64,000 bases of DNA from Yuukianura sp. NJ FZ-2021 (lineage: Eukaryota), in contig CM102289.1 of NCBI GenBank assembly GCA_046563655.1, positions 4,092,001-4,156,000 of the forward strand, in the 5' to 3' direction. Position 1 is the first letter of the stretch. Each line of letters opens with the position of its first letter. Under the pieces are notes generated by a model that was not told the origin of the DNA, did not search any database, and saw only the letters and a program-made list of their open reading frames with translations. The translations under genes and the position numbers were made by a program. Positions 3,328-53,081 of the stretch are shown piece after piece.

Positions 3328-4034
3328 ATTTGTATTAACAGAATAAACCACAGCAGGCAAATTACATAACTGTCATATTTAGTTGAAATTTTCAAATTCT
3401 AATGAACATATTTGCTGGGTTTAGCGAAAGCACGTCAAAGCCACATTTTAGAACACATTTGGGGTCAGATGAATTAGAAGTGACGCCCACGAGTCAATCG
3501 ATGTATCGATATTTTGTTTTATTTTGAAGACGACTTATTCCTTTGACGAAAGTAAAGTCTACTTGACGGATCTACTTCCGTTTAATTTGTCTGAAATGAA
3601 CCACACCCTGTAGTGTTTTATGAATCATTAAGTTGTTTGTCAAATGCTAACTTTCTGAGGGATTACAATTTCTTAACGTATTCCTACTCAAGGGAACGCA
3701 TTGTGTATCTTACGATAGTATTAAAAAAAACACCCAATTTACCCGGCGAAGTAAAAAAAAAATTTCCAAACGCTGCTTCATAAAGTTCAAGTTTAGTTAT
3801 CAAATTTGAGTAATTCATCATCCCGAACCATAAAATTAATTAAATTAATTTGGGGTATAGCTTCTAGAGCCTGTTGAACGTCCAATTGTATGAGAGTGTA
3901 CACTTTCAGCTTGTCGCTATACTTTTTTTCGCTGAAATTAGACACACCCTTTTGATGTCAAAATTATACTGCAAGGAACAAGGCACTGGCAGTCTTTTCT
4001 CTGAAATCGTTGGATGGAATTCACGCTCGTTATA

Positions 4035-12778: not shown

Positions 12779-13860
12779 TTGTAAGAATTTGTTTTTCAAA
12801 ATTGACAAGAATTATAAACCTTTAATACTGAAACACTATATTTAAACACAGTCCACTTGCATCCGCACTACTGCACAATTGAGTTTCACCAATCGCTGTA
12901 TCTGCTGATAAAGCCAGAAGAAAACTTTCGGTTATAGCAAAAAAGAAACGTGACATGTTCCTACTGACTGTAGTTTTCATCTATTTTGATGAATTAGTTG
13001 CCAAGGTCAACTTTTTCAAGTGTAAATGACGGCGAATTCTCAGTTGTGTACTTGAAACCAAAAAAAAATCTACACGAACGTCCCTATAGCCAGCCGTATA
13101 GTTATGACTATTTTCATCCGATCTTTACAAATAAACCACTGAAAGAAACTACACAAAGGAAATTACAGTAGTGAATAACAAAAATCTATAACAAAACTGT
13201 TCCACGTTTTTTCTTCAATTTAACTAATTTTTGTCTATTTAACATATGAAGGAATAAATGTATCTTTCCATTTTGTCATTTATCTAAATCTGTTCTAACA
13301 TTCTAGAAATGTTTCAACTATAACCGAAACTCCTGTAAAAATTTATTTTTCAGACATTTGCGCAGAATAAAATTAGGAAGTTTTGAAACAAGAAGTGGCT
13401 TCATGGGTTATTTTTTTCCACACGTCGATACTTTAAGATAGGACGCTAAAATGATTAAAAAATGTAAGAAATTTACAGAGGAGTTCAATTTGCCTGATGG
13501 AATAGTTTGTATTGTTTACGCCATTATGTCATCCTTCAACAAAGAAAATTATGTATAAGTCCTTTAAGTGACTGGCAACGCTTCGGGGTAACAAGTTTTT
13601 CAGTTTTAACAACAGTTTTCATATCTCAAGTTTACTGTACACATTTGTCACTCTGCAAAAAAGTTGGTTGTGCTTAATTGAATTAATGTTTGGTTTTGGG
13701 GTGTTACTTTGTTGAAGGTCCAGTTGACCGAGCTAGTTCTTTTTAATCTAGTATTACTTTTTGTTGAAAAAAAACATAGATCCTTTGTATTTGAAATTCG
13801 AAATGGAATTATCATTAGTCATTTTCTAGAAATCGTTCGACAGAGTAGACGGCCAGTAAA

Positions 13861-15309
13861 ATGAAAAACACAAGCCTAGGCGTAGAAAACAAATCCAACA
13901 GAGTTACGGAAGCGGAGTTTCACGAACCAATTACAGTTGACGCAGAGTTGGAACTGGCAAGAATTGGCAAGTATGCAATCTTTGGAGTTCAGTTCAGCGC
14001 TTACTTGGCGCTTGGAGCAGTCAAAGGGAAACTTTCTTGCAAGTGTTTCATACTTCCAGTTTTTGTGCAATGTTTCGTGATCGCTACCAACTGGGCCTCT
14101 CTCTTCGTAATGGTTTTAAACAGGGACGAGGCAGCAGTTGTGTTGAGCAACTTCAGTCAGACTGAGCAACTAATGATAAAACTTCAGTCATTTCTTGCTT
14201 GCTCGATTTCCGCGTACCTTCGAATTTATGCATTCTGCATCCGGAAGTCTACTTTTAAATTTTGGATTAGAAACGCAAGTATGCTTCACGAATTTTTGGT
14301 CTGTCAAAGGACCAGAACATCATTAGAGTTAAATTTGGCTGGAGCTACGCGCTCCAGTCGAAATTCACTTATCATTCTATTCATCCTTATTGCTGCCACT
14401 GTAGTTACTTTGGTAGTATTTAATAGTAGCTTTATGAGCTTCAGTAATAACTTAATAATTTTGGCTCAGTGCGTAATCACCGTGTTTGTCACGGGTCATG
14501 CCGTTCAGAACATTTGGATGTGCTTTTTTCTAAAAATATACAACGCCCTCTTTTGTCATCTTCAAAATCAGATTCGCGGAATCAACCCAAAGCGGTGCAA
14601 GACTAGGCTGGTGCGACAGGAACTTATGCAAGAAATTATAAAAATCGAAGCCGAACTGCACCGATGTTACCAACTGTATTTGGAGGTCGACGAACAAGTT
14701 AAAGATTTCTGTGCTCATTTCGGATATCGTTTAGTTGTTGACTGTGTGTTCAGCTTCCTCAACATTATTTCAGGCTCGTTCGTTTCGCTTCAATGGGGAT
14801 ACAACCCCAACTTTAAGTTCCACGAGTACGTATGTATCCTGTTCCAGGCGTCAATTTTCATCCGATCTTTGTACAGCATTTGCACAGAGGCAAGCAAAAT
14901 TTCATCAGAATCAGCGGCAATTGGAAAAGAGTTGCATAGCCTCTACGCCGAGATCGGAAGTCGATTGTCATTCAAAGGTCACCAAGAGTTTCAAATGTTC
15001 ACAGCAAAAATAAGCAGTGACCCACCACGTATTGACGGAGGCAACTTCCTTACACTCAGCAGACACCTACTCACTAGTGTAAGAAACATTTTGTTGGTAT
15101 AACATTATATTTGACTAATATTTTGATTTTCGCTCCAAAGAATTCCTGTGTTGCAGAAGGAATGGTCCATTATAACGTTTCGTTTACGCTTGTTTCAGAT
15201 CCTTTCAACTGTATTTACGTATTTGATAATTTTGTTCCAATTTCGAGCTGCTGAAAACAAGACGATGGGATCAGATTACAAGCCAAACGAAGAAGCAAGA
15301 CATCGATAG
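13861..15309 (+). CDS. Gustatory receptor paralog 2; exons 13861-15078, 15199-15309
   Basis: Paralogous to 4035-5611; TYLIILFQF in exon 2. Confidence 0.9.
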
Positions 15310-15387
15310 GCTGCATAAAAAAATATTACAGCACTTTAAGTGGTTTATTTACCTTCTTTTCCACAGCCCACAATATACCAGTTAGTT

Positions 15388-16103
15388 AAAATTCCCAGGC
15401 GTTAGACGCCGTGATCACTAGTGCGGTGAAATTATAAGAGCGCGTCTCGACAGCGCAAATTCCTTCTGTTCTAAATATTGAGAACGAGACGTGTTGTGGT
15501 CTGTAACCAATAAAATCCGTCCATTTCAAAATTCTCAGGCGTTAGACGCCGTGATCACTAGTGCGGTGAAATTATAAGAGCGCGTCTCGACAGCGCAAAT
15601 TCCTTCTGTTCTAAATATTGAGAACGAGACGTGTTGTGGTCTGTAACCAATAAAATCCGTCCATTTCAAAATTCTCAGGCGTTAGACGCCGTGATCACTA
15701 GTGCGGTGAAATTATAAGAGCGCGTCTCGACAGCGCAAATTCCTTCTGTTCTAAATATTGAGAACGAGACGTGTTGTGGTCTGTAACCAATAAAATCCGT
15801 CCATTTCAAAATTCTCAAGCGTTAGACGCCGTGATCACTAGTGCGGTGAAATTATAAGAGCGCGTCTCGACAGCGCAAATTCCTTCTGTTCTAAATATTG
15901 AGAACGAGACGTGTTGTGGTCTGTAACCAATAAAATCCGTCCATTTCAAAATTCTCAGGCGTTAGACGCCGTGATCACTAGTGCGGTGAAATTATAAGAG
16001 CGCGTCTCGACAGCGCAATTTCCTTATGTTCTAAATATTGAGAACGAAACGTGTTGTGGTCTGTAACCAATAAAATCCGTCCATTTCAAAGTTCCCAGGC
16101 GTT
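15388..16103. repeat. Tandem array of five near-identical 140-bp units
   Basis: AGGCGTTAGACGCCGTGATCACTAGT starts at 15397, 15537, 15677, 15817 (one substitution), 15957. Confidence 0.95.
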
Positions 16104-16787
16104 TTCGACGCTTTTCTCAAGAATTCCAGTTCCCTTGCATTTGGATGAAAGCCGTAATACGTATGTTGGTTGAACAATTACGACATCCGACGGTCGCCGC
16201 CGCCATCTTCAAAATTCACCCAGCCATTTTTTTCGCCGTTTTCATGGGAATTGTATGTAGATCCGTAAAACTTGCCCAAAAGCTGTAATACATAGGTTTG
16301 TTGCTGGCGACAACTGATGGTCGTCGCCGCCATCTTGAAATTTTGTGGAAACTGATTTCACACGCTTTTATGGCATTTTGATACAAATATTTTCAAGTAG
16401 TTGACCATATGATAGATGACATGAAAATATAGCGACAAATTATTGTCAACCGACGGTCGCCGTCGCCGCCGCCATATTGGATGTCGCCCTGAACGCCATT
16501 TTAACAACTCTTCCGAGAGTTGTTTCAAATACCCACCCTAATATTATGAAAACAGTGCTGGGGCACACGAGCCTTACGGTTTTGTTCTATAGCGTACTCA
16601 TGTTTTGTTTCAGGGCGGATTCCGTGAAGCTCTAATTGATTCACCTTTCTCTTTTAATCTTGAATACTTTATTACTTGAAAACAATCGACCACACCTTTT
16701 TAATGCGAAAACTTAAATGAAATCATCCAGCAACTGGAGTTCTTTTCCAGACATCGGTGGATACAGACAGAGTAAACAGGCAATAAA

Positions 16788-18241
16788 ATGAAAGGCAGAA
16801 AACGAGACCTAGAAAGCAGGTCCAGAAAAGTAACTGCAGCCGAGTTTCACAAAACAATCACAGTTGACGCCGAAGCAGAACTGGCAAGAATTGGCAAGTT
16901 TGCAATTTTGGCAGTGCAGTTGCATGGTTACTTAGCGCTTGGAGTGGTCAAAGGAAAACTTTCGTCCAAGTACTTCACGTTTGCGGTGTTTCTGCATTTT
17001 TTCGTCATACTTATCAACTTGACATCTGTCGCACTACTCTATTTGAACAAAGAGGATGCTGCAGTTGTTATGAACAACTTCAGCCAAACTGAGCGACTAA
17101 TAATACAACTGGTGTCATTCCTTACTTATATTATTTCTACGTACCTCAGAGTCTACGGATTATGCATACGGAAATCCACTTTAAAATTCTGGATTAGAAA
17201 TGCAAACATGCTTCACGCCTTTTTGGTCTCTCCGAAGACCAAAACATTATCCGGGTTAAATTTGTCAGGAGTTATGCGCTCCAGTCGAAATTCACTTATT
17301 ATATCAGTTACCCTAATTTGTGCTACGATTGTTACTTTGCTAGCGTTTAATACAAGCTTTATGAGCGTCAATAATAATTTACTAATTTTGGCTCAGTGTT
17401 CCAGTACTGTGTTGGTCACTGGCCATGCCCTGCAGGGTATTTGGATGTGCTTTTTCTTAGACATATACAGCTCCCTGCTTTGTCATATTAAGAAGCAGTT
17501 TCGCGGAATGAATCCAAAGCTGTGCGCAAATTCGCTGGCACAAGAGGAACTTACATTGGAAACTGCCAAGACAGAAGGCGAGCTGCGGCGATATTACGAA
17601 CTCTATTTGGACGTTGACCAACAGGTTGAAGATTTTTGTGCTCATTTCAGATGGCGTTTGGTTATAGACTGCATGGTCAGTTTTCTCGGCATTATTACAG
17701 GCACGTTCGTTTCGCTTCAGTGGGGATACAACACCAATGTTCAGATCCACGAGTACGTGGGCATAGCCTTTCAGGCGACAATTTTCATCAAATGGATGTA
17801 CAGTATCTGTACGGAGGCAAGTAAAATTTCAACAGAATCGGCGGCAATTTTAAAAGAATTGCATAGGATCTACGCCGTGATTGGAAGTCGCATGTCATAC
17901 CAGGGTCACCAGGCGTTTCAAATGTTCGTTGCAAAAATAAGCAACGATCCACCTCGTATTGATGCAGGCAACTTCCTTACAGTTAGCAGATACCTACTTA
18001 CTACTGTAAGAAAAAATTTGTTGAGTATAACATTGTATTTGGTTAAGATTTTGATATTCATTACAAGTCTATATTGCGTGAGTCGCGTAAGAAATGGTAC
18101 AATATAACGTTTCTTTTACGCATGTTTCAGATTCTCTCAACCGTATTTACGTATTTGATAATTTTGTTCCAATTTCGAGCTGCTGAAAATCCGACGATGG
18201 GGCCAGATTGTAAACCAAACGACGAATCAAGACACCGATAG
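16788..18241 (+). CDS. Gustatory receptor paralog 3; exons 16788-18005, 18131-18241
   Basis: Paralogous ORF; TYLIILFQF in exon 2. Confidence 0.9.
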
Positions 18242-18276: not shown

Positions 18277-18839
18277 CGTAGCACGTCATTACATCAGATC
18301 AATTACGTAAGTGACAATTATATAAGTGACAAAGACATCAGTGTCAATTACATCAGTACTACAAACACATCAGTAGTACAATTACATCCAAAGCATTTAC
18401 ATCAGTGACAATTACATCAGTGAGGCAATTACATCCAAAGCATTTACATCAGTTATCAAGTTACAACACAAGTGGTTCTAGTTTTGCGCGCCGAAGGCGC
18501 GGTGTTAGGTTTTCTAATGTTCGCAATACGGATTACGTCTCGCAGGTTTAGAATTTTTCAGAATTTTACTTTAATTACTCATGTTAGGTTAGTAGTAGCC
18601 AAAATTTTAAAAGTAATTAATTTTAGAAGCTTTATTATTTAAATGAAATTGTCTAATACCAATATGATATAATTGCTCTTGATGTAATTGTAGTACTGAT
18701 GTAATTGTCACTGATGTAAATGCTTTGGATGTAATTGCACTACTGATGTGTTTGTAGTACTGATGTAATTGACACTGATGTCTTTGTCACTTATGTATTT
18801 GTCACTTACGTAATTGAACTGATGTAATGACGTGGAAGC
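18277..18839. mobile_element. Foldback/MITE with ~150-bp sub-repeated TIRs and 8-bp TSD
   Basis: CACGTCATTACATCAG... at 18282 mirrored by ...CTGATGTAATGACGTG ending 18834; ATTTATTT on both flanks (18269-18276, 18840-18847). Confidence 0.8.
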
Positions 18840-19620
18840 ATTTATTTTACCTTGTTTTCCATAGTTCATTATATTTCATGTAGTTAATCTTACATATACA
18901 AAAATTATAAATTTTCGCAACCACGCTTATATAGGTGTGTGGGCTAAAGTGCACTAAATTAATTTGTTGGTAGCTATTAAAATAAAAAACAATTTGCTTT
19001 TCCTAAACAAACGTAGCATAGTGTATTTTAGTGTCGTTGGATTCATAAACTCCGACCAAATACACTCTATTTGGCATAGACTCCGCGCCGGATTATCCCA
19101 CACAGATCTATTTGCGCATGCCCAGAAAGCCACAGACCCCTACCGAACCGCTACAGGTAAAACCAATTATTCACTTACAGCAAATTTTCAGTTAATGATA
19201 CAGCAGGTAGTATGGTATAAGACGAGAATCTTCTGAAACGGGCAAACTTGAGGATTACGTAGCCTAATCAACTAATTAAAAGCTTTCCCTTGGTTCGCTG
19301 GTTTATGAGATGTAATCACTTATACACAGCCTTTATATTTCAAGCGTTTTGTTCAAGTCAATTGACCGTGCAAGCTCAATCATGAACAAAGTGCTCAGGG
19401 CACATGTGTCACTAGTTGGAAATTGGCGTACTCATGTTTTGTTTTAGGGCGGTATTCCAGGGAAGCTCTAATTGATTAAACCTGTTTTTTTAATCTTGCA
19501 TACTTTCTTTGGAAAAAATAAACCACGCCCTTTCAATGTGGAAATTGGAATTAAATCATCTTGGCACTTGAGTCCTTTCTCAGACATCAGTGGACACGGA
19601 CAGAATAAACAGACATAAAA

Positions 19621-20985
19621 ATGAAAGGCACAACTAGAGGCGGAGAAACCAAACCCAAAGACGTTACAGAAGCAGAGTTTCACAAACCAATAGTTGACGC
19701 CGAAGCAGAACTGGCAAGAATTGGCAAGTTTGCAATTTTGGCAGTGCAGCTGAACGGTTACTTACCACTGGGAGTTGTCAAAGGGAAACTTTCCTTGAAG
19801 TACTTCACACCAGCGGTTTTTGGGCATAGTATCGTGATACTTATCAACGTGGCATGCCTCGCAGTACTTTCTTTAAACAACGACGATGCCGCAATTGTGT
19901 TGAGCAGCTTCAGTCAAGTTGAGCGACTTCTAATACAACTGGTGCCAGCGCTTACTTACATCATTTCTACGTTCCTTAGAATTTACGGCTTATGCATACG
20001 GAAGTCCACTTTAAAATTCTGGATTAGAAATGCAAACATGGTTCACTGCATTTTGGTCTGCCCGAAAACCAGAACACTATCCGGGTTAAACTTGTCAGGA
20101 GTTATGCGCTCCGCTCGAAATTCAGTTATTATATTTGTTTTCCTCATTTGTGCCACGATTGTTACTTTGCTAGCGTTTAATACAAGCTTTATGAGCGTTA
20201 ATAATAATCTACTAATTTTGGCTCAGTGTTTCAGTACGGTGTTGGTCAACGGTCATGCCCTGCAGGGTATTTGGATGTGCTTTTTCATAGAAATATACAG
20301 CACCCTCCTTGGTCATCTTAAGACCCAACTTTGCGAAGTGAATCGAAAACTGCGCGGAAATACTCTGACACAAGAGGAACTTACAATGGAAACTAGGAAG
20401 ACAGAAGCCGAGCTGCGCCAATATTACGAACTTTATTTAGATGTTGACCAGCAAATTGACGATTTTTGTGCTCATTTCAGATGGCGTTTGGTTATAGACT
20501 GCATGCTCTGTTTCCTCAACATTATTGCAAGCACTTTCATTTCTCTTCAGTTTGGATACAGCGCAAATCTTCAGCTTCAGGAGTACGTGGGTATAGTTTT
20601 TCAGGCGACAATTTTCATCAGATGGATGTACACTATTTGTACGGAGGCAAGTAAAATTTCAGCGGAATCGGCGGGAATTGCAAAAGAGTTGCATAGAATA
20701 TACGCCGTGATTGGAAGTCGCATGTCATATCAGGGTCACCAATCGTTTCAAGTGTTCTGTGCGAAAATAAGCAGCGATCCACCTCGTATTGATGCAGGCA
20801 ACTTCCTTACAGTCAGCAGATACCTACTTACTACAGTAAGATGTATTACGCTAACTGTAACTTCGGTGCATCGATGTAACAATATTATCATAATTTCGTT
20901 TTTACATTTCTGTTTTCAGATTCTCTCAACCGTATTTACTTATTTGATAATTTTGGCTCAGTTTCGAGCTGCTGAAAAAGGGTGA
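19621..20985 (+). CDS. Gustatory receptor paralog 4; exons 19621-20835, 20920-20985
   Basis: Closest to paralog 3; TYLIILAQF; 84-nt stop-free intron. Confidence 0.9.
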   Translation: MKGTTRGGETKPKDVTEAEFHKPIVDAEAELARIGKFAILAVQLNGYLPLGVVKGKLSLKYFTPAVFGHSIVILINVACLAVLSLNNDDAAIVLSSFSQVERLLIQLVPALTYIISTFLRIYGLCIRKSTLKFWIRNANMVHCILVCPKTRTLSGLNLSGVMRSARNSVIIFVFLICATIVTLLAFNTSFMSVNNNLLILAQCFSTVLVNGHALQGIWMCFFIEIYSTLLGHLKTQLCEVNRKLRGNTLTQEELTMETRKTEAELRQYYELYLDVDQQIDDFCAHFRWRLVIDCMLCFLNIIASTFISLQFGYSANLQLQEYVGIVFQATIFIRWMYTICTEASKISAESAGIAKELHRIYAVIGSRMSYQGHQSFQVFCAKISSDPPRIDAGNFLTVSRYLLTTVRCITLTVTSVHRCNNIIIISFLHFCFQILSTVFTYLIILAQFRAAEKG

Positions 20986-25440: not shown

Positions 25441-26101
25441 ACTCTAAATTATTAAAAAATCAGCCCTGGATAATCGCGATTTACAAAAGTAGCTGAAGAT
25501 GACATTGGGCAGGACGTGAACAATTTAATATTTGTGACAATTTTAACAACATTCGTTTCAACGATAGTGACATACTGACGGATGAATACCTTCAGCTAAA
25601 GGGACGTGCCACTCAGATTAAGTAATGCTGCAAGTCTAGAAGAAAGCCACAGACTTTCACTGACCGTTGAAAGTACAATGAAGTCGCGAATCTTATCAGT
25701 CACTTGCGGCAGATTTCCAATTAATAGCGTTGCGAATAACATTAGACAGCAATTTACCGAATCCGACAAAGAGAGTATTACGTAAACCTTCTGCACTTAA
25801 TCCAGTATTGTGGTCCACTGATTGAATTATGACGCACACCCATGTTTGCTTATTGCATGTTTTGCATAATTCACCTAAATATTTCCTAAGTTTCTCTTTT
25901 TCGGCGTATTCATGTTTGGTTGTAAGGTGCGATATTCCAGTGTAACTCTAATTGACTAAGCTTGTTCGTTTGGTCTTACATACTTTTTACTTTGAAAAAT
26001 CACACACCCATTCAACATGGAAATTCGAATGAAATGAGCCTGGTAACTGGTAGTCTTTTTTCAGAAATCGGTCGGCACGGACAGAATACAGAGCAAGTTA
26101 A

Positions 26102-27487
26102 AATGAAAACCGCAAGACGAGACGTAGAAAACAAGCCAAGGAAAGTTACAGAAGCGGAGATTCACAAACCAATCAAAGTTGACGCTGAAGTAGAACTGGC
26201 AAGAATTGGCAAGTTTGCAATTCTTGCGGTACAGTTAAACGCATATTTGACGCTGGGCGTAGTCAATGGAAAACTTTCCAGCAAGTACTTCACATTGTCC
26301 TTTTTTCTGCAATGTTTGGTGAACATCATCAACTGTATTACTCTCGCTGTAGCCGTTTCAAGAGCAGATGAGTTATGGGAATTGTTCAGCAACTACAGTA
26401 ACATTGAGCAGCTCCTCTTCAAGGCTGTTGGTTTGTCTAATTGCGTTATTTCAGTGTACTTTAAAATACATGGATTCTGCACCAGGAAATATACTTTGAA
26501 ATTTTGGATTAAGAATGCGAACGTTCTCCATGCATTTCTGTCATGTACAAGAACAGGACCACCTTTGGTTCAAATTCTCGTAAAGGTTACTCGGTCCACT
26601 CGGAATTCGCTTATTATTTTAGTTACTTTGATAATCACAGGTGCAACTACTTTAGTTGTGTACGTTTCAAATGCTATTGGTTTCAACAACAAATTAGTCT
26701 TTATATCTCAGTGTTCCTTTTTTGTATTGATCGTGCTTCATGCCGCTCAGGCGATTTGGATGTGCTTTTTCCTAAAACTGTATAGCGCCCTCCTTTGCCA
26801 ACTTCAGATAGAACTTAGGCGAATAGCTCCAAATGCGTGCATAAATGCGCAGGGACAAATCATTGAAATCGCTAAAATAGAAGCCGAACTGCACCGATGC
26901 TACCAATTGTACTTGAAGGTTGACGAGCAATTGAAGTATTTTTGTGCTCATTTTGGCTGTCGACTAGTTATTCAATGTCTGTCCAGTTTCCTCAACATAG
27001 TTTCATCATCGTTTTTTATGCTTCGGATGGGAAACACTAGTTCTCAATTTGACGAATACTTGAGTATGCTTCTTCAGGCCATAATTTTCATACTACCTCT
27101 GTATAGCATTTGTACAGACGGAAGTCAAATTTCAATACAATCGGCTGCTATTGGGGACGAGTTGCACCAGCTCTACGCTGCCTTCGGAAATCGCGTGTCG
27201 TATCAGAGTCACCAAGAGTTTCAAATGTTCGCTACAAAAATCAGCAGTGACCCACCTCGTGTAGATGCAAACAGCTTACTTGTCATCAACAGATATTTAC
27301 TCACTACGGTAAAATTACTGTTTTTTTTTCTAAAAGTATTGTAGTCATTGGTAAATCAAACCTCCACGAGCCCTACTTATGATTTCTTCGTTTGATTATA
27401 TTTCAGATTCTCTCGACGGTATTCACGTATTTGATTATTTTGATTCAGTTCCGAACTTCTGAGTATGGAATAACGACGGCAAAGTGA
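26102..27487 (+). CDS. Gustatory receptor paralog 5; exons 26102-27308, 27407-27487
   Basis: Paralogous ORF; TYLIILIQF; start chosen by alignment with paralogs. Confidence 0.9.
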
Positions 27488-42365: not shown

Positions 42366-44190
42366 ATGTCCAGTGTCATTCTCCCAGCGGAAGGTATGTT
42401 CCTTAAGTACTTAGTTTTATTTTTTTATTTAAAGTGTCAGCTAGTCAAAGTGTTTGTAATGTTTATAGTAACTGCAGTCGGTAAATAATTTAACTGATTT
42501 ATTTAATACTTTCATTCAAGAGTGTCGTATTTACGTATTTCAAAACGCTGAAAAACGAACCCTCCAGCGAAATAATTTTTCGATGTTACCAAAATAATTT
42601 ACACCTCCACGAATTCTTATAGTCACTACTCACTAACATACCTACCTCACTTTTGATTTCAGAATATAATTGCCATCCTTTCAAGAATACTGACGGGTAT
42701 GTAGATGCGGAATTAGCTGCAAAATGGCTTTTAGAAGCACAAAATGGAATGCACTCCGACTGCATTTCGACGCAAGAGCCAACAGATCCTAATACTGGAG
42801 ACGTAAGTTAAAATTTCTGGAAGATCATACAGAATTCCTCACTATCATTTACAATGACGGAGTTGGTTTCAACCTTTACAGGTCGTTTCAATACAACTTC
42901 TATGTCAAAGTACTAACTTTTATGGTTTTAACTTTAGGTTTATATTGTCAAAAGGAGTATACCGAATATGAGAGGAAAAGCTCCAAGGACACAATGGAAA
43001 AGGATTTCAACAACATCCGTGACACGCCAAGGAATCAAAATTGATGTTGAAGTGTTCATAATTCCAAATCAAGAAGGTTTCGCCATGTTTACAAAACGGG
43101 TATTCCGAATTCGAAAAGCGTCAGGTACATGAAAAGCACAAATCTGAACTGAAGTTAGTAAACTTTCTTATATTCACTATGCTTTACCCTGTTGTTCCAG
43201 TTGACTACACAAATTCAAGGTTGACTTTAGTCGCTTTCGATGGAAGCGACCCTGCGCAGAAAATTCCAAAGTGTGAAACACCAGGTACGCTAAACATAAT
43301 AGTGCTTTTTACGAAATTTATTTATAAAAGTTAATAAATAAAGGAATCTGTCGAGTTAGCTCCGAAAAAAAGAAAACGTCCGCGGAAATTGAACGTTATG
43401 GATTCGGGCACCATAGCAAAGCATCATGCCATGCCAACGCAAAAGGTCTATGGGCAAGATGTCACCACCGAAGTTCGCTCGGAATCGACCCTGAATTCCA
43501 AGAAGACAACGTTTATGAAGACTGCTCTTGATCTACTGTCAAAACAGCGTGATTTTCCGCATAATCTACCGGACGCTACAGTACCAGATGCCCTATTGAG
43601 TTCACAAGTGGTAATGTGTAAATGTGCTTTAATTGGAACTGTGCGCTAAGTTTCCATTTTCTAATCCAATCTTTAAAATTATTAGGTACGTGGGGTTGGG
43701 AATTCCAAACGGCAGAAACTAATCTTAAGGAAGCAACGAAATCATTATAAAGACCACGTTAGTCAGAGCGTTCATGGCAACACAAATCAACGAAACAATA
43801 CCAGCGCAAGTCCATTGATGCAACGAAAATTAGTCCTTCAAGAATGCTTGAAGACTAGACATTTGGTTGACGTGAAGCAAAACGTACGGTATCCAACTCA
43901 TTTGTCACAATTTTACACTAGCGTGAATATTCCGAATGAAAGTGAATCAAAAGTTGCAAATTTTTTTGACGACGCCAAACAGATTCCATTCACAACGAAC
44001 CATAGATCTCTCCGGTACGTAGCTCGAAATTCTTATATTGTTTTTATATTTTGTTCATTGGAAAACGGAATTGATTTGTTACGTTTAATTGTGTTTACGT
44101 AGGAAAAGGTCGGTTTTGACGTCACCGGAAGATTTGTCTGGGACGAAACCTACAGTGACCGTAAAGCGAAGTGCAAGCGGCCTTAAAATT
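42366..44190 (+). CDS. Multi-exon gene or pseudogene with CG-1-like (transposase-type) DNA-binding domain
   Basis: Spliced reading QEPTDPNTGD|VYIV...TQWKR...FTKRVFRI...LTLVAFDG; several GT-AG introns; first-exon frame does not join cleanly. Confidence 0.45.
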
Positions 44191-44822
44191 ACAGCAGTGA
44201 GATTCGATTGACAGACGCTATAAATAATTTATTTTTTTACTCGCATAATTATTCAGCAAGTTAAATGAAATGAAGCGTTAGCCGAAGCAAGGAATGTAAA
44301 GCGACATCTTCAGAATTGATGTCAACGTTCGCCATTGCGATGTTTTCACAACCTAAACCGCTTTCTCCTTTAACGGAGCGTCGCAATTACTCTATGTATC
44401 GGTAACACAACATGTCATAAGTCGTTTGGATTGTACTATAGAAGTAGGCCATGATCCAGGATCCACTCCCCTCGAAAGTGTTGGATATATCCGGATTTTT
44501 CTGGTGTCTTCCGAACGAAACTCAATTTTGTCAATCGGAAACTGGATTGCATCCGGATTTATCCATTTATCCAGTGGATATATCCTGGACGAAATGCTAA
44601 AAAAGTGGATATCCACAAACACTGCTGTCAGTGTTGTTGTGAAGGAAAATGTAATAGACTAGCAGTAGAGGGGAAGGAGATTTACGTACTTATTCTTAGC
44701 CCTCCGAAAAAAAGGACCACCGAACATGAAAAATGTTCGATGAGAAAATATGATGAAAAAAATAAAATGTCAAAAACATAAATAACAAAAAATGCAACAA
44801 CAAAAACATAAACTACAAAAAT

Positions 44823-47234
44823 CATAGAGTTGTCAAGACGATGATTTTCGTTTTTTCTTTTAACTAGAGTGGACATGAGGCATTTTTTCAACAAAATTTT
44901 TGAAGCAAATTAAAAGAGGTAAAAAAACCGATTTCACCTGAACTTTAAGCCCGGTTCTCACGACGAAATTCAAACGTTCTTTCAAACTTTCTAAAATTGT
45001 TAATAAAAAAAAGTTGAAAAGACAGTCAAATAATTTTTGAATTGCAAAGGGTGGATCCTTGGTTGGTGAATCGTGGAGCCAAATAAACTTCTTGGTAATT
45101 AACTTTACTGCAAGTGAGATTTGTAGAGAACGGTTGTGGCAGTACTCTAGATACTTTAGACGGATATCCATAACTTCTGAGCTACAGCAGCTTGATACCT
45201 CAACTGCAGTGAAACTACCGTGGGGTCAATTGCTAACAAGAAAAACTTTTTTTCCCACCCTTTTCGTCTCACCCCCAACTTCTGGGTTTGGCATGCGGCA
45301 GCTACGCTCCGCAAGACATCTGGCACTTTTGGAACTCTGTTGACAATTTAGAGTTTTTCTAACCAAACCTAAAGTAAATTCACTTCAAACGAATGTAATA
45401 ATTAACATAACCTAATTAATTAATGTTTTAATTAACATAAACAAGTTAACTGGCCTAATTATTTTCTTTAAAATAATTTAAGTATAAAATATTATGAATT
45501 GACCTAAAATTTGAACAAATTAACCTAACATAACGCTAACCTAATAAAATATTAACGTGTAGTTACCCAATCACCAAAACAACATTTTGGAAAAAAAAAT
45601 TTTTTTTCTTACAAACTTCATAGAATTTCACATGCTATGGGGGGAAAAAGGGTTCCGCCCACCCACCCTTAGCTCGGGAATTCCGCTCCGCGGAATTCCC
45701 TCGCCGGGTCGCCCCGCTCCTTCCCCTATAATCAAGCCCCTCCACCCTTTTTTGTGTACTTTTTTTTTAACTTTTCGCACCTGTGCACTTTCTCCATTTT
45801 TGGACAACTTACTAAATTTCAGGGTTTTGTGTAAATATGAGGTGCCTTCGACTCTAAAACTTTGTTCATTAAAAAATTTGGAGATTTGGAGTAAAAAATT
45901 AATACTTATGAAATTACCTATCCTTATACTAATTTTTAAAACATGACTTCGTAGGGTTTAGCCCAAGCTTCAGTTAGCAGCGTTAACGGCCTCAGAAATC
46001 TGCAAAAAAGTTAAATGTTACCCCTCGAAAGAGTTACGAGTTACTCCTCCAAAAGAGTTACGAGTTACTCCTTTCCGTTTCTGGATTAAAACGCCAGGTG
46101 TAGTTCATTAGTGCGGACCTCTGGCGGAACAGAAAAACCTCCAAAAAAGAGTAACAGGTAACTCTTTTTTGCGTTTTACCCATAGCATGTAAAATTCTAT
46201 GAAGTTTGTAAGAAAAAAAATTTTTTTTTTCCAAAATGTTGTTTTGGTGATTGGGTAACTACACGTTAATATTTTATTAGGTTAGCGTTATGTTAGGTTA
46301 ATTTGTTCAAATTTTAGGTCAATTCATAATATTTTATACTTAAATTATTTTAAAGAAAATAATTAGGCCAGTTAACTTGTTTATGTTAATTAAAACATTA
46401 ATTAATTAGGTTATGTTAATTATTACATTCGTTTGAAGTGAATTTACTTTAGGTTTGGTTAGAAAAACTCTAAATTGTCAACAGAGTTCCAAAAGTGCCA
46501 GATGTCTTGCGGAGCGTAGCTGCCGCATGCCAAACCCAGAAGTTGGGGGTGAGACGAAAAGGGTGGGAAAAAAAGTTTTTCTTGTTAGCAATTGACCCCA
46601 CGGTAATTAGAAAGAAGTTAATTTGACTCCAGGGTTCACCAATTCAAGATCCACACTTTGAAATTCAGAAACTATTTGACTGTTTGTGTCGCCTCAAACT
46701 CCACACAAATCAGTGACACCCGTGTCAGGTCCATAGTTCCTAAATTACGGGAAAATGACCTGGTGATTTCTACCATTGATAGATACTTAGTAAGTAGATA
46801 GTAACTTAGATGTAGATAGGTTGTTTAGATGTAATTAACTTAAGTATCAGTAATTTAATTAGAATTAGTAAATAGTAACTTCAATTTAACTTTTTGCGAA
46901 AGCAATTTCAGCAGCAGAAGCAATTGTTGGGTTGCTGCCGCTGCCACCTCTTCTTGGCACACTACTAGTCACCATTTGTATCATGACACATATGCGCGGA
47001 TATTTTGTCTAAAAAAAAACCTGCTTTTCGCATTTTTATTCATAATTTTAGAAATTTTGAAAACTGAAAATCTAATTTTCGTCGTTTCTGTGAACCGGGC
47101 TTATAGTTCAGGTGAAATCGGTTTTTTACCTCTTTTAACCTCTTTTAATTTGCTTCAAAAATTTTGTTGAAAAAATGCCTCATGTCCACTCTAGTTAAAA
47201 GAAAAAAAAATCGAATCGTCTTGGTTACTCTATG
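44823..47234. mobile_element. P-element-like non-autonomous element with long TIRs
   Basis: Termini CATAGAGT...ACTCTATG; exact 8-bp TSD ACAAAAAT (44815-44822, 47235-47242); arms 44823-45100 vs 46606-47234. Confidence 0.8.
45218..46603. mobile_element. Young MITE with ~425-bp near-perfect TIRs and TA TSD (Tc1/mariner-type target)
   Basis: TA|CCGTGGGGTCAATTGC...GCAATTGACCCCACGG|TA; 45218-45640 vs 46179-46603. Confidence 0.88.
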
Positions 47235-47396
47235 ACAAAAATGCCGACAAAAATTTTTAAATAACAAGTATTTCAATTTTTCCATACAAAATTCGAACAT
47301 TGACTCGAGCATAGTGTCAAGTCTATGTTTTTGTAACTACTCTGCGGTCGCTGGTAGGTACCTAGAGTGAAGGCACCCACCCCATCCTCTCCCTCC

Positions 47397-47853
47397 TGTG
47401 AGAGTTATTATTACAAGACTCGCGTCTTGAAACAATAAGAAATCAATAATGAAATACAAGACTTGAGTACTTTATTCAATGAACCAAAGAAAACTTTAAA
47501 ACACTAGCTTGACCTGGTAAGGTCACTGCTGAATGAGCTGAGACTTGGAAGAGTCCATGCTGGACCAACGACTGGTGCAGTTCCAGATGTGGCAAAGGTT
47601 TAAATAGCTAATTACATAACATATCTTACGGAAGGGTTAGGGATGGTCAGGGTGCATTCCTGTCCTATCCACTTTACTTACTCTAGACATTTATCAAAAA
47701 AGTTTCTTAAAAGCTTGAAGTGCAGTTGGCACTAAAACGTATCTCTACCTGAGTAATAGTTAGGAATGGAATGTACAAAAGCAAACTTAGCAACAAATCT
47801 ACTTATTAGCTAATGACATGTGTAACAGTTATGACCGGGTCATCCCACTCACA
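47397..47853 (-). mobile_element. Possible solo LTR inside the Polinton-like element
   Basis: TGTGAG...CTCACA inverted ends; minus-strand TATTTAAA (~47605) and AATAAA (~47470); flanks only partly match. Confidence 0.4.
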
Positions 47854-47948
47854 CCGTTCTGCGCATATGACTCATAAGTCTAATGCTTTCATAAGTTCAG
47901 TCGCAGTAACCTAACAAGTATGCATGACAATGCTAAATGTTCATAACT

Positions 47949-48916
47949 TTAAGACGTAGTAACTACGTGGCAGTAACACAACCTTAATAAGTCACAGGAC
48001 AAAAGTAATTCAACTACGTAGCGATTTACATTGTCTAGGTTTTCCTCAGAATATGGCCAATTTAAAAATTCATAAACTCTCCTTCTAAGTTCCCTTAAAC
48101 GATGATGCTCAATAGCTTCATAAATAACCATCAATAGAGAAATTTCGTTAAAATCATATTGTAACTCATTTTCAAAAGTCTCCGATACTATGAATTTATG
48201 AGCTAAATCAAGACGATTGTGGCGTATTACAGATAATACAATACAATAATTATCGTATTCTAACCTAGCATAAAGTCGTACAGGTCTAATATCAATTAAT
48301 CGTTCATTAGCTGAAAGAAAATGATTATCATACATGTTTTATTCCAAGCACTTCCCGTGCTTTTCGTTCCTGACGAATTTGGCGAAAAGATTTCCCCATT
48401 TTGCTTAAGCTGAACTTGCTGAACTAAAATGTCAAAATGTTTTCTGTCCCAAAGACTGAAAGAACAGGAGGTGAAGAACACACAAAGGCCTATGTGTATG
48501 CTATGTGTAAGATAGTAATTTTTGGAAATCTAACCCCTAAAGCTCAATGAAACTTAAGTTTACAGTAACATGGGGAGTGTATAATAGAAAATCTAGACTA
48601 GAAATTGGTAGACATCCCAACGCAATCCGTCGTAAACGAGCAGCAACATATGATAAGCCTCGAGGCCCATACACTTCCCTTCATTTCTCCTTAAAAAACT
48701 GCTAAAGTGATTATAATGTTGGAATATAGGAAAATAGTGGGCTACTGTCATTAAACCATCATAATTTAGATAAGACCCAATTTGCTTGGAAATATGATAT
48801 GGTAAATTAAACATCGGATGCTGGAAAGCTGGAACCTCTTCATCCTCGTAATTATGCTGTAGTTCAGCATACAACTTTTTGCTTGCTCTTTCTTTCGTAT
48901 GGGTATGAAAGGACAA
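47949..48916 (-). pseudogene. Fragmented intronless cargo ORF(s) with F-box-like motif
   Basis: ORFs 48593-48916 (FNLPYHISKQIGSYLNYDGLMTV), 48296-48481, 47949-48335 on one strand. Confidence 0.4.
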
Positions 48917-49559
48917 ATGACTTAATGTGATGTGGTTATAATAACCACACGCCGTTTCAAAATTTTGATCAGAATAAGGGATGAATTCACATGAACTGAA
49001 ATCCTGTTCTTCAGGTTTAGGTAAGTTAAGTCAACCAGCTAGGGAAAATTACCGTGAACTTTGACCCACAAGCAGAAAAAAGGCATGTCAGATGATGAAT
49101 ATTTCCTGGAAGAGCAATGATTTTCTCGGATCAGGTACATGGAAGTTGCGTCATGTTGAACAGCTACTGCGATTGAAAATGTTTTGAAATAGCAGAGCGG
49201 AGCAATGGGCATTTGCCACATGCACGGCAATGGCCGACATGGAGATTTAGCCCAGGAGTTGTCGTTTTGAATACGGGAAAGTCTTCCGTAAAGAAGAAGA
49301 GAAACAATTAAAAATTCTATCAAATTCATTTAAAAATTCATCAAATTTGGGTTAAATTTGTTAGGTTACTAACTCTTCATAAACCGTGGGAGAGACACAC
49401 GCTGTCCGGCGCGACCGACATACGCAACTGTTCCGTACGCCTCAAACAGCTTGTCTTCAAAGATGAGTCCATCGGCAGTATTTAGTGTTGATGGCTTTAC
49501 TGCCGCTTCCCTAGAAAACAAACCGGTTAAAAATACCGTTGTTTGAGATAATGTTAAAG

Positions 49560-50603
49560 TGCAAACAAGACTTCTTCCACCGGACACCAGACAAGTTAAT
49601 CACATCACCGGGCGGATTGACGATCACAAGCGCAACCCACTTGTGATCTCCACCCAAAAATTCTGGAAACTACAGCAGAATTGAGACCATCCTGCACAAA
49701 CCGCTAATTCCAATGAAGGAAGCGTGGGTTGATTTTGCTGCACATGACATTGCATTTCCCCAGAACACTTGTCCACATTTATCACTATTCTGTACAAATG
49801 AGAACTTCACCCGCAGCACTCTCTCCAAAATATCAAAAGAAGATGAGTATCGCTCCGAGTGTATTCAAGCATGCCTGTGTGCATCTTTGTAAGGGGCCGA
49901 ATCCCGAAATCACTTAAAAGGGACTCTTTCGGAACTAACATTTCTATTCCGCGATAATTATGCACTAACTTACCAAATGCAATTGGCTGTCCACCACAAA
50001 ACATTTGATGTACAAGCTCGATCATCCCTACCATGAAAACTTGAATTTGAACGGCGAGATCATTTGCATTTCCATGAAAAATATTCAGATACTCGGCATC
50101 ATGAAAAAATTCCTTAAGTTTATGAAACGGGTGTACCAAGTTGAAGGTGTCAACGAAGTACTCGCATTCTTTAACAGACAACTGCAGAAGTGCGTTATAA
50201 CTATCGATATACCCCTTATCGAAGCTCATCTCCGCGTCTAGACTAATCACTGGACACACACGGAGATGGTTAATCATACGTTGAAATTGACACACTATAA
50301 ACTATAACCAAGTCAATTTCGTTTGGACGATCTTTATACTACTTCCCCTTTAAGTTCCTTATGCTTAGTAACCATAAACTCGTCTAATTTCCAGGAATCA
50401 ACATCAGACGCAAATAGGTGCTTACTGTAGGGAAACACCTGCCACGAATTTTGAAGCACAGCACGACAAAAATACACAGAATCAGATTCCTGAGGTCGTT
50501 CTTTTGCTTTTACATACTTATGGAGACAAAAATTCTGTTCGTTTCTATAGGATGCTAAGGACCCGCTGTTTCGTACTTTTTTCTCTAAAATTGATCTAGG
50601 CAT
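49560..50603 (-). pseudogene. Degenerate intronless Rrp6/EXOSC10-like DEDDy 3'-5' exonuclease with HRDC-like remnant
   Basis: ISLDAE, LLQLS, YFVDT, FHGNANDL, SDFGIRPL, MLEYTRSDTHLLL; upstream TKLTWL and downstream RQSAR*CD* interrupted by stops. Confidence 0.75.
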
Positions 50604-52267
50604 GATGAAAACATTGTAACATAATCACTTATGGACCTCTATTTACATTTTACTGAAATTTGACACGTTGTGTTCAATTGGTACTTAAATTGTTGGTTCT
50701 ATAATCGTCTAAAATACGGTAGTTGACTGTATGTTTCTACCTGTTCTGCCAACCGGTAGAGTATCTGCTTCTGGCGATTCGTCTGACACGGCAGATACTA
50801 ACGGAAGTTTGAACTTCGACTTCCGAACCATGTACGGATTAAGTTCAGAAGCATGACGCTTACCAAAACTGGGTCTTTCCTGTAATCTGACCAATCTGAA
50901 CGTGGCGGGTGTCGGAATACGGAATACTTCTAACTCGGAGAGCAATTTCATGGTCATGCTTCACCTCTTCCATCGCTTGAGAACAGCGTTGGAGGACAAA
51001 TGTTACAATTTCGACTAATATTTTCAGAACTCATGATTGCTAGACACAGAACTCATTGTTTAAATAGCCCTCGGAACATCGTTTGAAAACTCTTAGAAGT
51101 TTTCGAGAACGTTTTTCTAGACTTTTTCTAGACGTTTTGTCGAAATATTTGTAGTTTATGTTTTTAACGTTGATAAATTTTGTTATTGATGTTTTTGACA
51201 TTTTGGTATTTTCTTGTTGTAAAGTGGAAATTTGAGCTAAGTAATGACTTGGATCGCTTGTTGGTCAGAGGTTATTGAGATGCTATTTTATTGAAATGCA
51301 AAACGGAACTGATTTCATAAAATGTATTTTCTTAAAGAAGAAGAACAAAATTGCTAAGTAAAAATAGTGAGAAAAAGCCAAAGTTCAGTTTTGTTTTAGA
51401 AGTTGGTTTCTGAGTTTTAGAAAATGAAACAATGGACTTTTTCACAAAAGTCCATGAGCATGTGAGTCATTGTGACTCACGCTGTCAAAGTACAAGCTAA
51501 AAGTTGCTTTTGGAAGTGAGGTCAAGATTGACCTTTCAACATTTCTCATCGAACATTTTTCATGTTTCGTGGACCTTTTTGTCGGAGGGATAAAAATAAG
51601 TTAGGTTACTTAAATCTTCGTCCTTCCTCTCTACTCTAGCACACCAGTTATGTACTATCACGTGCTTGTCCAAACTGGACAGAAGCCAAGTTCCATATTA
51701 TTGTGAATACGTTTGGTTTCCCTTATATCTTCATTTTCTTTTTGAAAGCTCTCAAGTGTTAGCAGTATTTGCTCAATACACAAAAGCGTATTAGCAGTTG
51801 TAGTAGAACTCTTAACACAGAAAGCCAAAGTTCAAATGAAATATTTGCGATGTATAGATTTTCACTTGAATTGTTTGATTTTGCTGATGGTCGTGTTGAC
51901 CCCTGACCTGTTCACCCCCAAAGTGCACTGGTCACTTTTTCAAGGTCGCAGGAATCACACTCCACATCCTTGAAGTGGAACCGAGGAGTTACATTGGAAT
52001 AAATTTGCATTTCTATTAGAAAATTATACTTCGGGTAGAGTCAAATGTTAAGCATAAAAACTAGGTTGGCGAATTTAGGTTATGAAGTATTTGGTTTGTA
52101 TTTTTGTCTAACCCCAGCTAAATAGCATCTAAATAAAACCACAAGTTGACAGTAAGCATTTAGCAATTGGATTAATTAAACCATGTTTTGGAATAAAAGA
52201 CGTGATTTCTAGGTCACTGCTTATAATACATAATTATTGCTCCACGTTTGGCTCTGTGACTGAAAAA

Positions 52268-53081
52268 ATGAAAAATTTTGCACTCATAGCAGCAGTACTG
52301 ATTGTTCTGGTTGCCTCAGTTGCAAATGCTGCTGTGACTAAAGAAAATTGTGAAAGTATTCCAGGATGGCTTCTTTACAGCGGACGACCGACGCGAAGTA
52401 AGGAGAGGCATTTGTTTGAAGAGATTAAAATAAAATTAGAAAAATTAAATGAGAGAAGTCTTTGAATTTTCTAGGCAAAGAAACACTGAAGGTGAGTGAT
52501 GCAGTTGCGAATAAAAACGAAGTGGATTTAAGGTTTCGTAGTTGCTGTAACTACAAGGAAAAGTGTGAAGTTTCAATTGAAGAATTGAATACTGGAAGAT
52601 CTGGACGAGAAGTGTGTAACCTTGTTGCCAGTTGCACGCAAGTTGATTCTGGAAATTTATTTATCGAACGCACATCATCCAGTGGGTGGAAATCATCGCC
52701 CTACTGTATCAACTTCCAGGAAACTTCCTATGGAATTCCAGTTCGATATTGTCAAGGTATGGAAAATTGTTCTAAGCCCGTCATGTACTTAGCTAGATGT
52801 AATTTAAAGTAAACTTGATTTTTCGGTTAGGTGCTGATGCATGTTTCCAAAGGTCACAGCAAAAAGGCGACCTTTTGACCTGCCTTAGCACTTTGTTCGG
52901 AGATGTAATGGACCATGCTGGATTTTTTTCGGATGCATTATTTCCATACAAGTCGTTTTCTTACAAAAGTCGCGGCTCTTCTGCAAATGTTGAATATTCT
53001 TTGACAAAGAGTGGACAAATTACAAAAGGCGCATCGCCATTTCTCAGAATTGGAAATAGTGCAACGCCAATTGCTGCTTGA
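52268..53081 (+). CDS. Secreted cysteine-rich protein of unknown function, paralog A; exons 52268-52397, 52475-52756, 52831-53081
   Basis: Signal peptide; GT-AG introns join in frame; paralog at 53583. Confidence 0.8.

What the first reader, a model, noticed from the sequence alone, without database searches (positions are those of the whole stretch)
44664..51635. Maverick/Polinton-like element carrying host-type cargo rather than viral core genes
Seen: long degenerate inverted repeats starting AGTAG, an exact 5-bp flanking duplication CTAGC, and TIR homology resuming across a ~325-bp indel and across the P-like insertion, implying original TIRs of several hundred bp. Known: AG...CT termini, long TIRs and 5-6-bp TSDs are Polinton/Maverick hallmarks. 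Inference: a deletion derivative that lost pPolB, integrase, ATPase and capsids but kept intronless co-oriented cargo (Rrp6-like nuclease, F-box-like ORF), i.e. a possible gene-shuttling family.
Basis: partly seen in the sequence, partly recalled or inferred. Interest (0 to 1): 0.8.

Follow-up and report, generated by a model that had tools for sequence, protein, structure and literature searches.

The report
Dead Polinton shell holding retrotransposon debris
This is the broken, single-copy remnant of a virus-like Polinton (Maverick) transposon whose inside is filled with decayed pieces of other jumping elements, not with genes taken from the host, so it is ordinary genomic debris rather than a gene-shuttling family.

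Summary
The ends are real Polinton ends: AGTAG termini, an exact 5-bp duplication (also at 5 of 8 other paired-end elements checked), and 70-86% identity to ends of elements encoding integrase, A32 ATPase, DNA polymerase and a capsid-like protein. No core viral gene is left. The 'host-type cargo' reading fails. The Rrp6-like gene is a broken 3' piece of a Gypsy retrotransposon (integrase end plus third ORF, 72% DNA identity; tree support 100/100, apart from the single host RRP6). The F-box-like ORF is the broken antisense cargo gene of another Gypsy lineage, beside a piece of its LTR. Two MITEs, two solo-LTR-like inserts and a spliced gene piece make up the rest. No second copy spans the tested junctions (0 of 17, 0 of 8). 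Best reading: a dead Polinton derivative filled by nested insertion and deletion. Whether the composite ever moved as one unit is open (about 15%). The scan had already noted the Gypsy Rrp6-like ORF3, this cargo ORF family and mini-Polintons elsewhere in this genome.

The parts
44659..44663 (+). Left copy of 5-bp target-site duplication CTAGC
   Evidence: same length at 5 of 8 other paired-end elements
44664..44822 (+). Left Polinton terminal inverted repeat, outer part (starts AGTAG)
   Evidence: 44756-44821 is 74-86% like other Polinton ends
44823..47234 (.). 1,019-bp MITE (CATAGAG..CTCTATG, 8-bp duplication ACAAAAAT; 'P-like' is a recalled label) carrying a nested MITE
   Evidence: 98% to G000:C5:3655458-3656476; inverted end pairs elsewhere; absent in a contig of run X5
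45218..46603 (.). Nested young MITE, TA duplication, ~430-bp arms 99% identical
   Evidence: joint 45215-46604 in runs X1, X3, X5
47243..47355 (+). Continuation of the left Polinton end
   Evidence: 74-78% to ends of other Polintons
47353..47396 (-). Short piece like the region just upstream of a SET-domain gene at G000:C1:5661.9k
   Evidence: 37 of 45 identical, E 3e-7; SET domain by Pfam
47397..47996 (+). Outer end of the 5' LTR of a cargo-bearing Gypsy lineage, interrupted near its start
   Evidence: 67-76% to LTRs incl. those of the 15.3-kb element G000:C1:5645190-5660508
47409..47827 (.). Solo-LTR-like insert with GTTAT duplication
   Evidence: copies 75-82% elsewhere; a joint that skips it in runs X3 and X5
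48028..49010 (-). Broken orphan ORF with an F-box-like motif; antisense cargo gene of the same Gypsy lineage
   Evidence: 68-78% DNA, 52-69% protein to the intact 290-aa copy; frame change, 1 stop, 192-bp insert; no Pfam F-box; weak fold match to an F-box, Z 4.2, rmsd 2.6, 45 aligned
48314..48505 (.). 192-bp dispersed repeat inside the orphan ORF
   Evidence: 92% to G000:C8:6277373-6277568
49050..49522 (-). Broken piece of a probably spliced gene with a C2H2-like motif (by eye); source unresolved
   Evidence: 58-64% protein in three blocks to L159; 3 relatives; AT-rich GT..AG gap between blocks; no Pfam hit
49597..50913 (-). Broken 3' piece of a Gypsy retrotransposon: end of integrase (50913-50727) and first ~366 of ~651 residues of the Rrp6-like ORF3 (DEDDy exonuclease, cut inside HRDC)
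   Evidence: 72% DNA to three LTR-bounded elements; 3 stops and frame changes; tree; PF01612
50914..50927 (.). 7-bp tandem duplication at the Gypsy-Polinton junction
50917..51214 (-). Right Polinton end, inner part, with the first ~39 codons of a 256-aa Polinton accessory ORF
   Evidence: 70-80% DNA; 61% protein, E 1e-9
51215..51541 (.). 327-bp solo-LTR-like insert, TG..CA ends, TTTCT duplication
51542..51635 (-). Right Polinton terminal inverted repeat, outer part (ends CTACT)
51636..51640 (+). Right copy of target-site duplication CTAGC

Best explanation
A Polinton-lineage element inserted here once through its integrase (shown: paired AGTAG ends and the lineage's 5-bp duplication). It was, or became, a non-autonomous shell with long TIRs like the mini-Polintons of this genome (inferred). 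LTR retrotransposons of two Gypsy lineages inserted into it, and deletions with end-joining removed the Polinton core and most of each retrotransposon, fusing the leftovers (sources shown; order and repair mechanism inferred). Later, solo-LTR-like inserts and two MITEs were added (shown by their own duplications and by contigs that lack them). Today it does nothing as a unit: every gene piece is broken and it is a passive target for further insertions.
For: Ends match Polinton ends. 49597-50913 is collinear with integrase-end plus ORF3 of LTR-bounded Gypsy elements, about 17% of one; 24 of 27 other exonuclease hit loci have a Gypsy-type integrase match within 1.5 kb (two of the 27 are one broken copy). 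Tree: window copy with three Gypsy ORF3s 100/100; host RRP6 in a separate clade 97/94; identity 66-69% to those ORF3s, 28% to host RRP6. The orphan ORF lies inside a 15.3-kb element with 97.8% LTRs and a CTGTA duplication, and the window holds its LTR end in the same order. Lesions in both ORFs; dN/dS 0.15-0.20 against 0.07-0.10 among intact copies. Junctions unique: 0 of 17 and 0 of 8 non-self hits span them; the terminal 14-mer occurs only here. A young model of the same process exists: at G000:C1:253k and 282k a 96%-identical 1.45-kb Gypsy ORF3/3' piece replaces about 740 bp of a Polinton, while the copy at C1:230k lacks it.
Against: The target duplication dates only the shell, so it cannot show that the pieces arrived afterwards. 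All four coding pieces point the same way (chance about 1 in 8). The estimated neutral decay of the exonuclease (0.11, bootstrap 0-0.19) is nominally larger than the divergence per TIR arm (0.058, 0.03-0.095), as if cargo decay began first, though the intervals overlap. A second organism label (run X5) holds the left-hand junctions, which fits an old shared insertion but also a second copy. No clean empty site was seen among the 15 joints listed (11 more not shown). Genome DNA searches give lower bounds.
Confidence: 0.8

Rival explanations
1. The composite formed elsewhere and was then moved as one unit by a helper Polinton: a polB-less Polinton that carried retrotransposon pieces, inserted here and died.
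For: Mobile polB-less Polintons with Gypsy or LINE cargo are reported in insects (10.1101/2025.02.07.637071, passages). This genome has recently mobile mini-Polintons with 96-98% identical giant TIRs and clean duplications. Cargo decay is nominally older than TIR divergence. Co-orientation of the pieces. Left junctions also present in run X5, a second organism label.
Against: No second copy of either tested junction. The two Polinton copies at C1:253k/282k that share a Gypsy piece are 98.6% identical over 9.7 kb including flanks, which looks like a segmental duplicate, not transposition. The dating intervals overlap.
Confidence: 0.15
2. The two ends come from two separate Polinton insertions in inverted orientation and the 5-bp repeat is chance.
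For: The inner parts of the two arms keep different segments of the reference end (left 47235-47355, right 50919-51118), and nested, rearranged Polintons exist in this genome (C1:4618k).
Against: The two outer arms are each other's only close match in the genome and share an exact 5-bp duplication of the lineage's length; by base composition that is about a 1-in-500 to 1-in-1000 chance (my estimate).
Confidence: 0.03
3. One reading: a family of Polinton derivatives that captured host genes (Rrp6, an F-box gene) as intronless cargo and shuttles them.
For: Nematode Mavericks do carry and transfer cargo genes (10.1101/2022.07.12.499685, passages). The exonuclease family's nearest named relatives are cellular RRP6/EXOSC10. 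The orphan ORF has a weak F-box-like fold match.
Against: The exonuclease sits directly behind a Gypsy integrase end and groups with Gypsy ORF3s, not with the single intron-containing host RRP6. The orphan ORF's closest intact relative lies inside an LTR element. Both are broken; single copy.
Confidence: 0.02

Closest known systems
Polintons/Mavericks (adintovirus-type) and their deletion derivatives (definition: 10.1101/2023.08.22.554363, passages; PMC6431247, passages)
   Same: AGT-type termini, long TIRs, a duplication within the reported 5-8 bp range, ends related to elements with polymerase, integrase, ATPase and capsid-like genes.
   Different: 7 kb (about 4.5 kb without the MITEs) rather than 13-25 kb; no core gene; arms 11% diverged; one copy.
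polB-less insect Polintons carrying Gypsy or LINE cargo (Pannagram preprint 10.1101/2025.02.07.637071, passages)
   Same: Polinton ends, polymerase lost, Gypsy sequence in its place.
   Different: Those keep other core genes and show continued mobility by near-identical polymorphic copies; this one has no core gene, only broken pieces, and no second copy.
Nematode Mavericks with WASP/KRMA cargo (10.1101/2022.07.12.499685, passages)
   Same: Non-core genes between Maverick TIRs.
   Different: There the cargo is intact, host-type and rides largely complete elements; here it is retrotransposon-derived and dead.
Juno/Vesta LTR retrotransposons of bdelloid rotifers with a DEDDy ORF3 (PMC5408684, passages)
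   Same: Source of the 'Rrp6-like' piece: a DEDDy 3'-5' exonuclease as third ORF behind integrase.
   Different: The intact ORF3s here also carry HRDC (2 of 3 scanned) and their nearest named relatives are RRP6/EXOSC10; the rotifer paper has 0 occurrences of 'HRDC'. Relationship to the rotifer ORF3s was not tested.

Membership tests
Polinton/Maverick (lineage of the ends) | Terminal inverted repeats starting AGT | tested here: met
   AGTAG..CTACT, 150 aligned bases at 89% identity
Polinton/Maverick (lineage of the ends) | 5-8 bp target-site duplication | tested here: met
   CTAGC; exact 5 bp at 5 of 8 other paired-end elements. An empty site was not seen
Polinton/Maverick (lineage of the ends) | Ends homologous to elements with the Polinton core genes | tested here: met
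   70-86% to ends of 14-17 kb elements encoding rve integrase, A32-like ATPase, DNA polymerase (phrog_1907 E 7e-8 for one relative; B-family motifs, recalled; no Pfam hit) and a capsid-like protein (Atlas 0.98 to clusters with DJR-like_dom in 14-30% of members; no Pfam or PDB sequence hit)
Autonomous Polinton/Maverick | pPolB, integrase, ATPase, protease, capsids inside the element | tested here: not met
   36 ORF probes from two full elements: only the start of one accessory ORF matches at E < 0.01
Mobile non-autonomous Polinton family | Several copies of the same internal structure at different sites | tested here: not met
   0 of 17 and 0 of 8 non-self hits span two junctions; terminal 14-mer only here; counts are lower bounds; other genomes not searchable
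Ty3/Gypsy with DEDDy-HRDC ORF3 (source of 49597-50913) | Integrase end followed by exonuclease ORF3, collinear with LTR-bounded gag-pol elements | tested here: met
Ty3/Gypsy with DEDDy-HRDC ORF3 (source of 49597-50913) | Own LTRs, gag, RT | tested here: not met
   only about 17% of an intact element matches: a fragment, not an element
Host RRP6/EXOSC10 retrocopy | Groups with the host RRP6 gene | tested here: not met
   28% identity; separate clades; host gene at G000:C3:14833661-14836131
F-box proteins (48028-49010) | F-box domain | tested here: inconclusive
   No Pfam F-box in 3 of 3 intact relatives at E <= 0.1; residues 62-107 of the model align to the F-box of 5ibk_E, Z 4.2, rmsd 2.6, 45 aligned, rank 13; Foldseek no match at E <= 0.001

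The most novel reading that the evidence does not exclude
A gene-less Polinton shell collected accessory genes from two different retrotransposon lineages (an Rrp6-like nuclease and an F-box-like orphan), all in one orientation behind its own end promoter, and was mobilised in trans as one unit. Polinton shells would then act as vehicles that reshuffle, and perhaps carry between hosts, retrotransposon accessory genes; the in-frame Polinton integrase-HRDC fusion at C1:253k/282k would be a second product of the same traffic.
Probability: 0.15. Interest if true: 0.5.

Novelty: new member of a known kind. Interest (0 to 1): 0.22.

Why it matters
As it stands, little: it is a worked example of how nested insertion and deletion can make a dead Polinton look like a cargo carrier, and a warning that an 'Rrp6-like' or 'F-box-like' intronless gene between TIRs must be checked against retrotransposon accessory ORFs. 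It also shows that this Polinton lineage makes 5-bp duplications. If the composite did move as a unit, it would extend the reported mobile Polintons with transposon cargo to fully gene-less shells. The more interesting biology it points to, a diverse Gypsy lineage with an RRP6-like third gene under purifying selection, lies elsewhere in the genome and was already noted by the scan.

Tried and rejected
Arm-to-arm resumption beyond the P-like MITE: not significant (542 of 2000 shuffles). Empty-site search by laying contigs of 4 runs (2 samples, 2 studies; X1-X3 are one sample and may be the assembly's source): no single-CTAGC joint among the 15 listed, 11 not shown; one X1 contig at depth 7.8 skips 43308-52426, a larger loss that is not an empty site. 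No RNA holder listed. Flank searches: left flank holds a common 165-bp repeat, right flank is unique; no paralogous empty site. 49010-49600 has no DNA-level copy. Profile search with the orphan ORF family: 0 hits in 1.84 billion representatives; Atlas best 0.90 with low recognition, a lead only; Foldseek nothing at E <= 0.001. Single-sequence fold of the capsid-like protein failed (pLDDT 33) and was not searched. Pfam and PDB sequence searches did not name the polymerase, protease or capsids of the relatives. Viral-contig scan with ORF3 returned 0 loci. Dating cargo decay against TIR divergence was inconclusive. Paper searches found DEDDy ORF3s only in the rotifer paper; some searches were seen as listings, and none listed a springtail Polinton study by title; subscription papers and Repbase were not searchable, and supplements were not read. 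The ends of 3 of 8 elements in the duplication census gave no match: one old copy (C3:4238k, right end probably mis-picked) and a nested pair (C1:4618k) whose outer-left and inner-right flanks match each other.
Full report
1. Observation. The window is G000:C7:4092001-4156000 of a 98.7-Mb genome, probably a springtail, since its RRP6 pairs with that of Orchesella cincta at 99/99. The element starts AGTAG at 44664, ends CTACT at 51635 and is flanked by exact CTAGC. The arms pair in two blocks (81% and 83% with gaps; 16 substitutions in 150 aligned bases). The right arm is split by a 327-bp dispersed repeat with TG..CA ends and a TTTCT duplication. The left arm is split by a 1,019-bp MITE with an 8-bp duplication, 98% identical to a copy on C5, which itself holds a TA-flanked MITE with 99% identical arms.

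2. The ends are Polinton ends. Window 44756-44821, 47235-47355 and 50919-51118 match the ends of other elements at 70-86%. Three of these are 14.1-16.9 kb long with paired AGTAG ends (C3:7749k, C4:6654k, C3:7456k) and encode an rve integrase, an A32-like ATPase, a split DNA polymerase (PHROGs hit for a relative; B-family motifs recalled from memory and located) and a 435-aa protein whose Atlas neighbours at 0.98 carry a double-jelly-roll family in 14-30% of members. Others are 6-kb mini-elements with TIRs of about 2 kb. Five of 8 other elements whose two ends I picked have an exact 5-bp duplication and none extends to 6; 5-8 bp is the published range (10.1101/2023.08.22.554363, passages), 6 bp the textbook value (PMC3014272, passages). 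In the reference ends, the segment kept on the window's left lies about 140-260 bp from the terminus and the segment kept on the right about 390-590 bp, so the ancestor probably had TIRs of at least 600 bp (inference). Of 36 ORF probes from two full elements only the first 39 residues of a 256-aa accessory ORF match inside the element.

3. The Rrp6-like gene is retrotransposon DNA. 49597-50913 is 72% identical to three places that are gag-pol-ORF3 Gypsy elements with 99-100% identical LTRs of 374-387 bp. The window holds the integrase end and residues 3-366 of the 651-aa ORF3, about 17% of an element, with three stops and frame changes. Of 27 other exonuclease hit loci, 24 have a Gypsy-type integrase match within 1.5 kb (two loci are one broken copy). 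The host RRP6 is one intron-containing gene on C3. In a 32-row tree (14 of the ORF3 loci, 16 of 120 listed database proteins, host, window) the window copy groups with three ORF3s at 100/100, and host plus 15 RRP6 proteins form a separate side at 97/94; identity is 66-69% to those ORF3s and 28% to host RRP6. dN/dS is 0.07-0.10 among the three intact copies and 0.15-0.20 against the window copy, as expected for a gene that was selected and then died. DEDDy ORF3s are known from rotifer LTR elements (PMC5408684, passages); the HRDC-bearing form had been noted by this scan in this genome (e1-7469866, e1-7392043).

4. The F-box-like ORF is also retrotransposon cargo. 48028-49010 is 68-78% identical to two C1 copies. 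The window keeps that LTR's outer end at 47397-47996 in the same order and orientation, with about 2.9 kb missing between. More distant relatives recur beside the same neighbour ORFs at C3:5707k, C10:951k and C3:7444k. The window copy has a frame change, a stop and a 192-bp insert. F-box status is open: no Pfam hit, no relatives among 1.84 billion representatives, but residues 62-107 of a pLDDT-72 model align to a solved F-box at Z 4.2, rmsd 2.6, 45 residues.

5. Remainder. 49050-49522 is a broken piece with three relatives, one inside a decayed Polinton and one beside a polymerase fragment; its homology blocks are separated by an AT-rich GT..AG stretch, so it looks spliced, against 'intronless'. 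Its source is unresolved. 47353-47396 resembles the start of a SET-domain gene region on C1. The assigned pieces cover 6,825 of 6,972 bp.

6. Is it a family? No non-self hit spans the Gypsy-Polinton junction (0 of 17: 3 Gypsy side, 14 Polinton side) or the LTR-orphan junction (0 of 8), and the terminal 14-mer occurs only here; these searches are lower bounds. Contigs of three runs of one sample cover the interior, with a second version about 4.5% different over 48833-49625 and a joint lacking the 47409-47827 insert; a contig of a second organism label lacks both that insert and the P-like MITE but keeps the Polinton-end/LTR/orphan junctions. So those junctions are older than the two inserts. 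Whether that contig is the orthologous site is not shown. No empty site was listed.

7. Mechanism. Shown: Polinton-type insertion of the shell; the sources of the pieces; their decay; later insertions. Inferred: retrotransposons landed inside and deletions with end-joining fused the remains; the 7-bp tandem repeat at the Gypsy-Polinton junction fits such repair. A young parallel supports this route: a 96%-identical 1.45-kb 3' piece of another ORF3 Gypsy replaces about 740 bp of a Polinton at C1:253k and 282k, fusing integrase to HRDC in frame, while the C1:230k copy lacks it. The alternative, that the composite moved once as a unit, has a precedent (10.1101/2025.02.07.637071, passages) and is not excluded: neutral decay of the exonuclease is 0.11 (0-0.19) against 0.058 (0.03-0.095) per TIR arm, and the four coding pieces are co-oriented.

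8. Verdict. It works like nothing today; it descends from a Polinton and fails the tests for an autonomous element and for a mobile family. New member of a known kind (decayed non-autonomous Polinton with nested transposon remains). Interest 0.22.

Noticed in passing
L049-L075 (27 loci across G000): A diverse Gypsy lineage with an intact 600-730 aa third ORF (DEDDy exonuclease, HRDC, C-terminal CCHC-like knuckle), catalytic motifs kept, dN/dS about 0.1, young LTRs; one unnamed metagenome protein (P0001, 37%) groups with it.
   Followed up: partly
L094:6040-7494 and L095 (G000:C1:253k, 282k): Polinton integrase fused in frame to the HRDC-to-end part of a Gypsy ORF3 (627-aa open frame); the copy at C1:230k has the unfused integrase.
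   Followed up: partly
L097-L099 (G000:C1:5645190-5660508), L140-L143: Large Gypsy elements with several antisense cargo ORFs between the 5' LTR and gag; related regions also hold dUTPase-like and exonuclease-like ORFs.
   Followed up: partly
L076, L077, L078: 6-kb mini-Polintons with about 2-kb TIRs 96-98% identical and clean 5-bp duplications; L077 and L078 keep an ATPase and one other ORF between the TIRs.
   Followed up: partly
L092:5596-6414, L135:143-943: Full Polintons carry their own ORFs with an F-box-like start (by eye) next to the TIRs; no Pfam F-box hit and unrelated to the window's orphan ORF.
   Followed up: partly
window 43308-52426: One contig of run X1 (depth 7.8) skips this whole stretch, possibly a rarer allele that lost the element with its flanks.
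   Followed up: no
window 4005-5315, 13849-15102, 16776-18107, 19609-20985, 25956-27344: Five paralogous intronless 417-462 aa ORFs, 66-84% identical in DNA, hydrophobic and receptor-like by eye.
   Followed up: no
window 9645-10798, 15248-16243, 18282-18834, 44462-44624: Tandem arrays of 289 bp and 140 bp, a 170-bp inverted-repeat element, and a common 165-bp repeat just left of the element that run X5 lacks.
   Followed up: no
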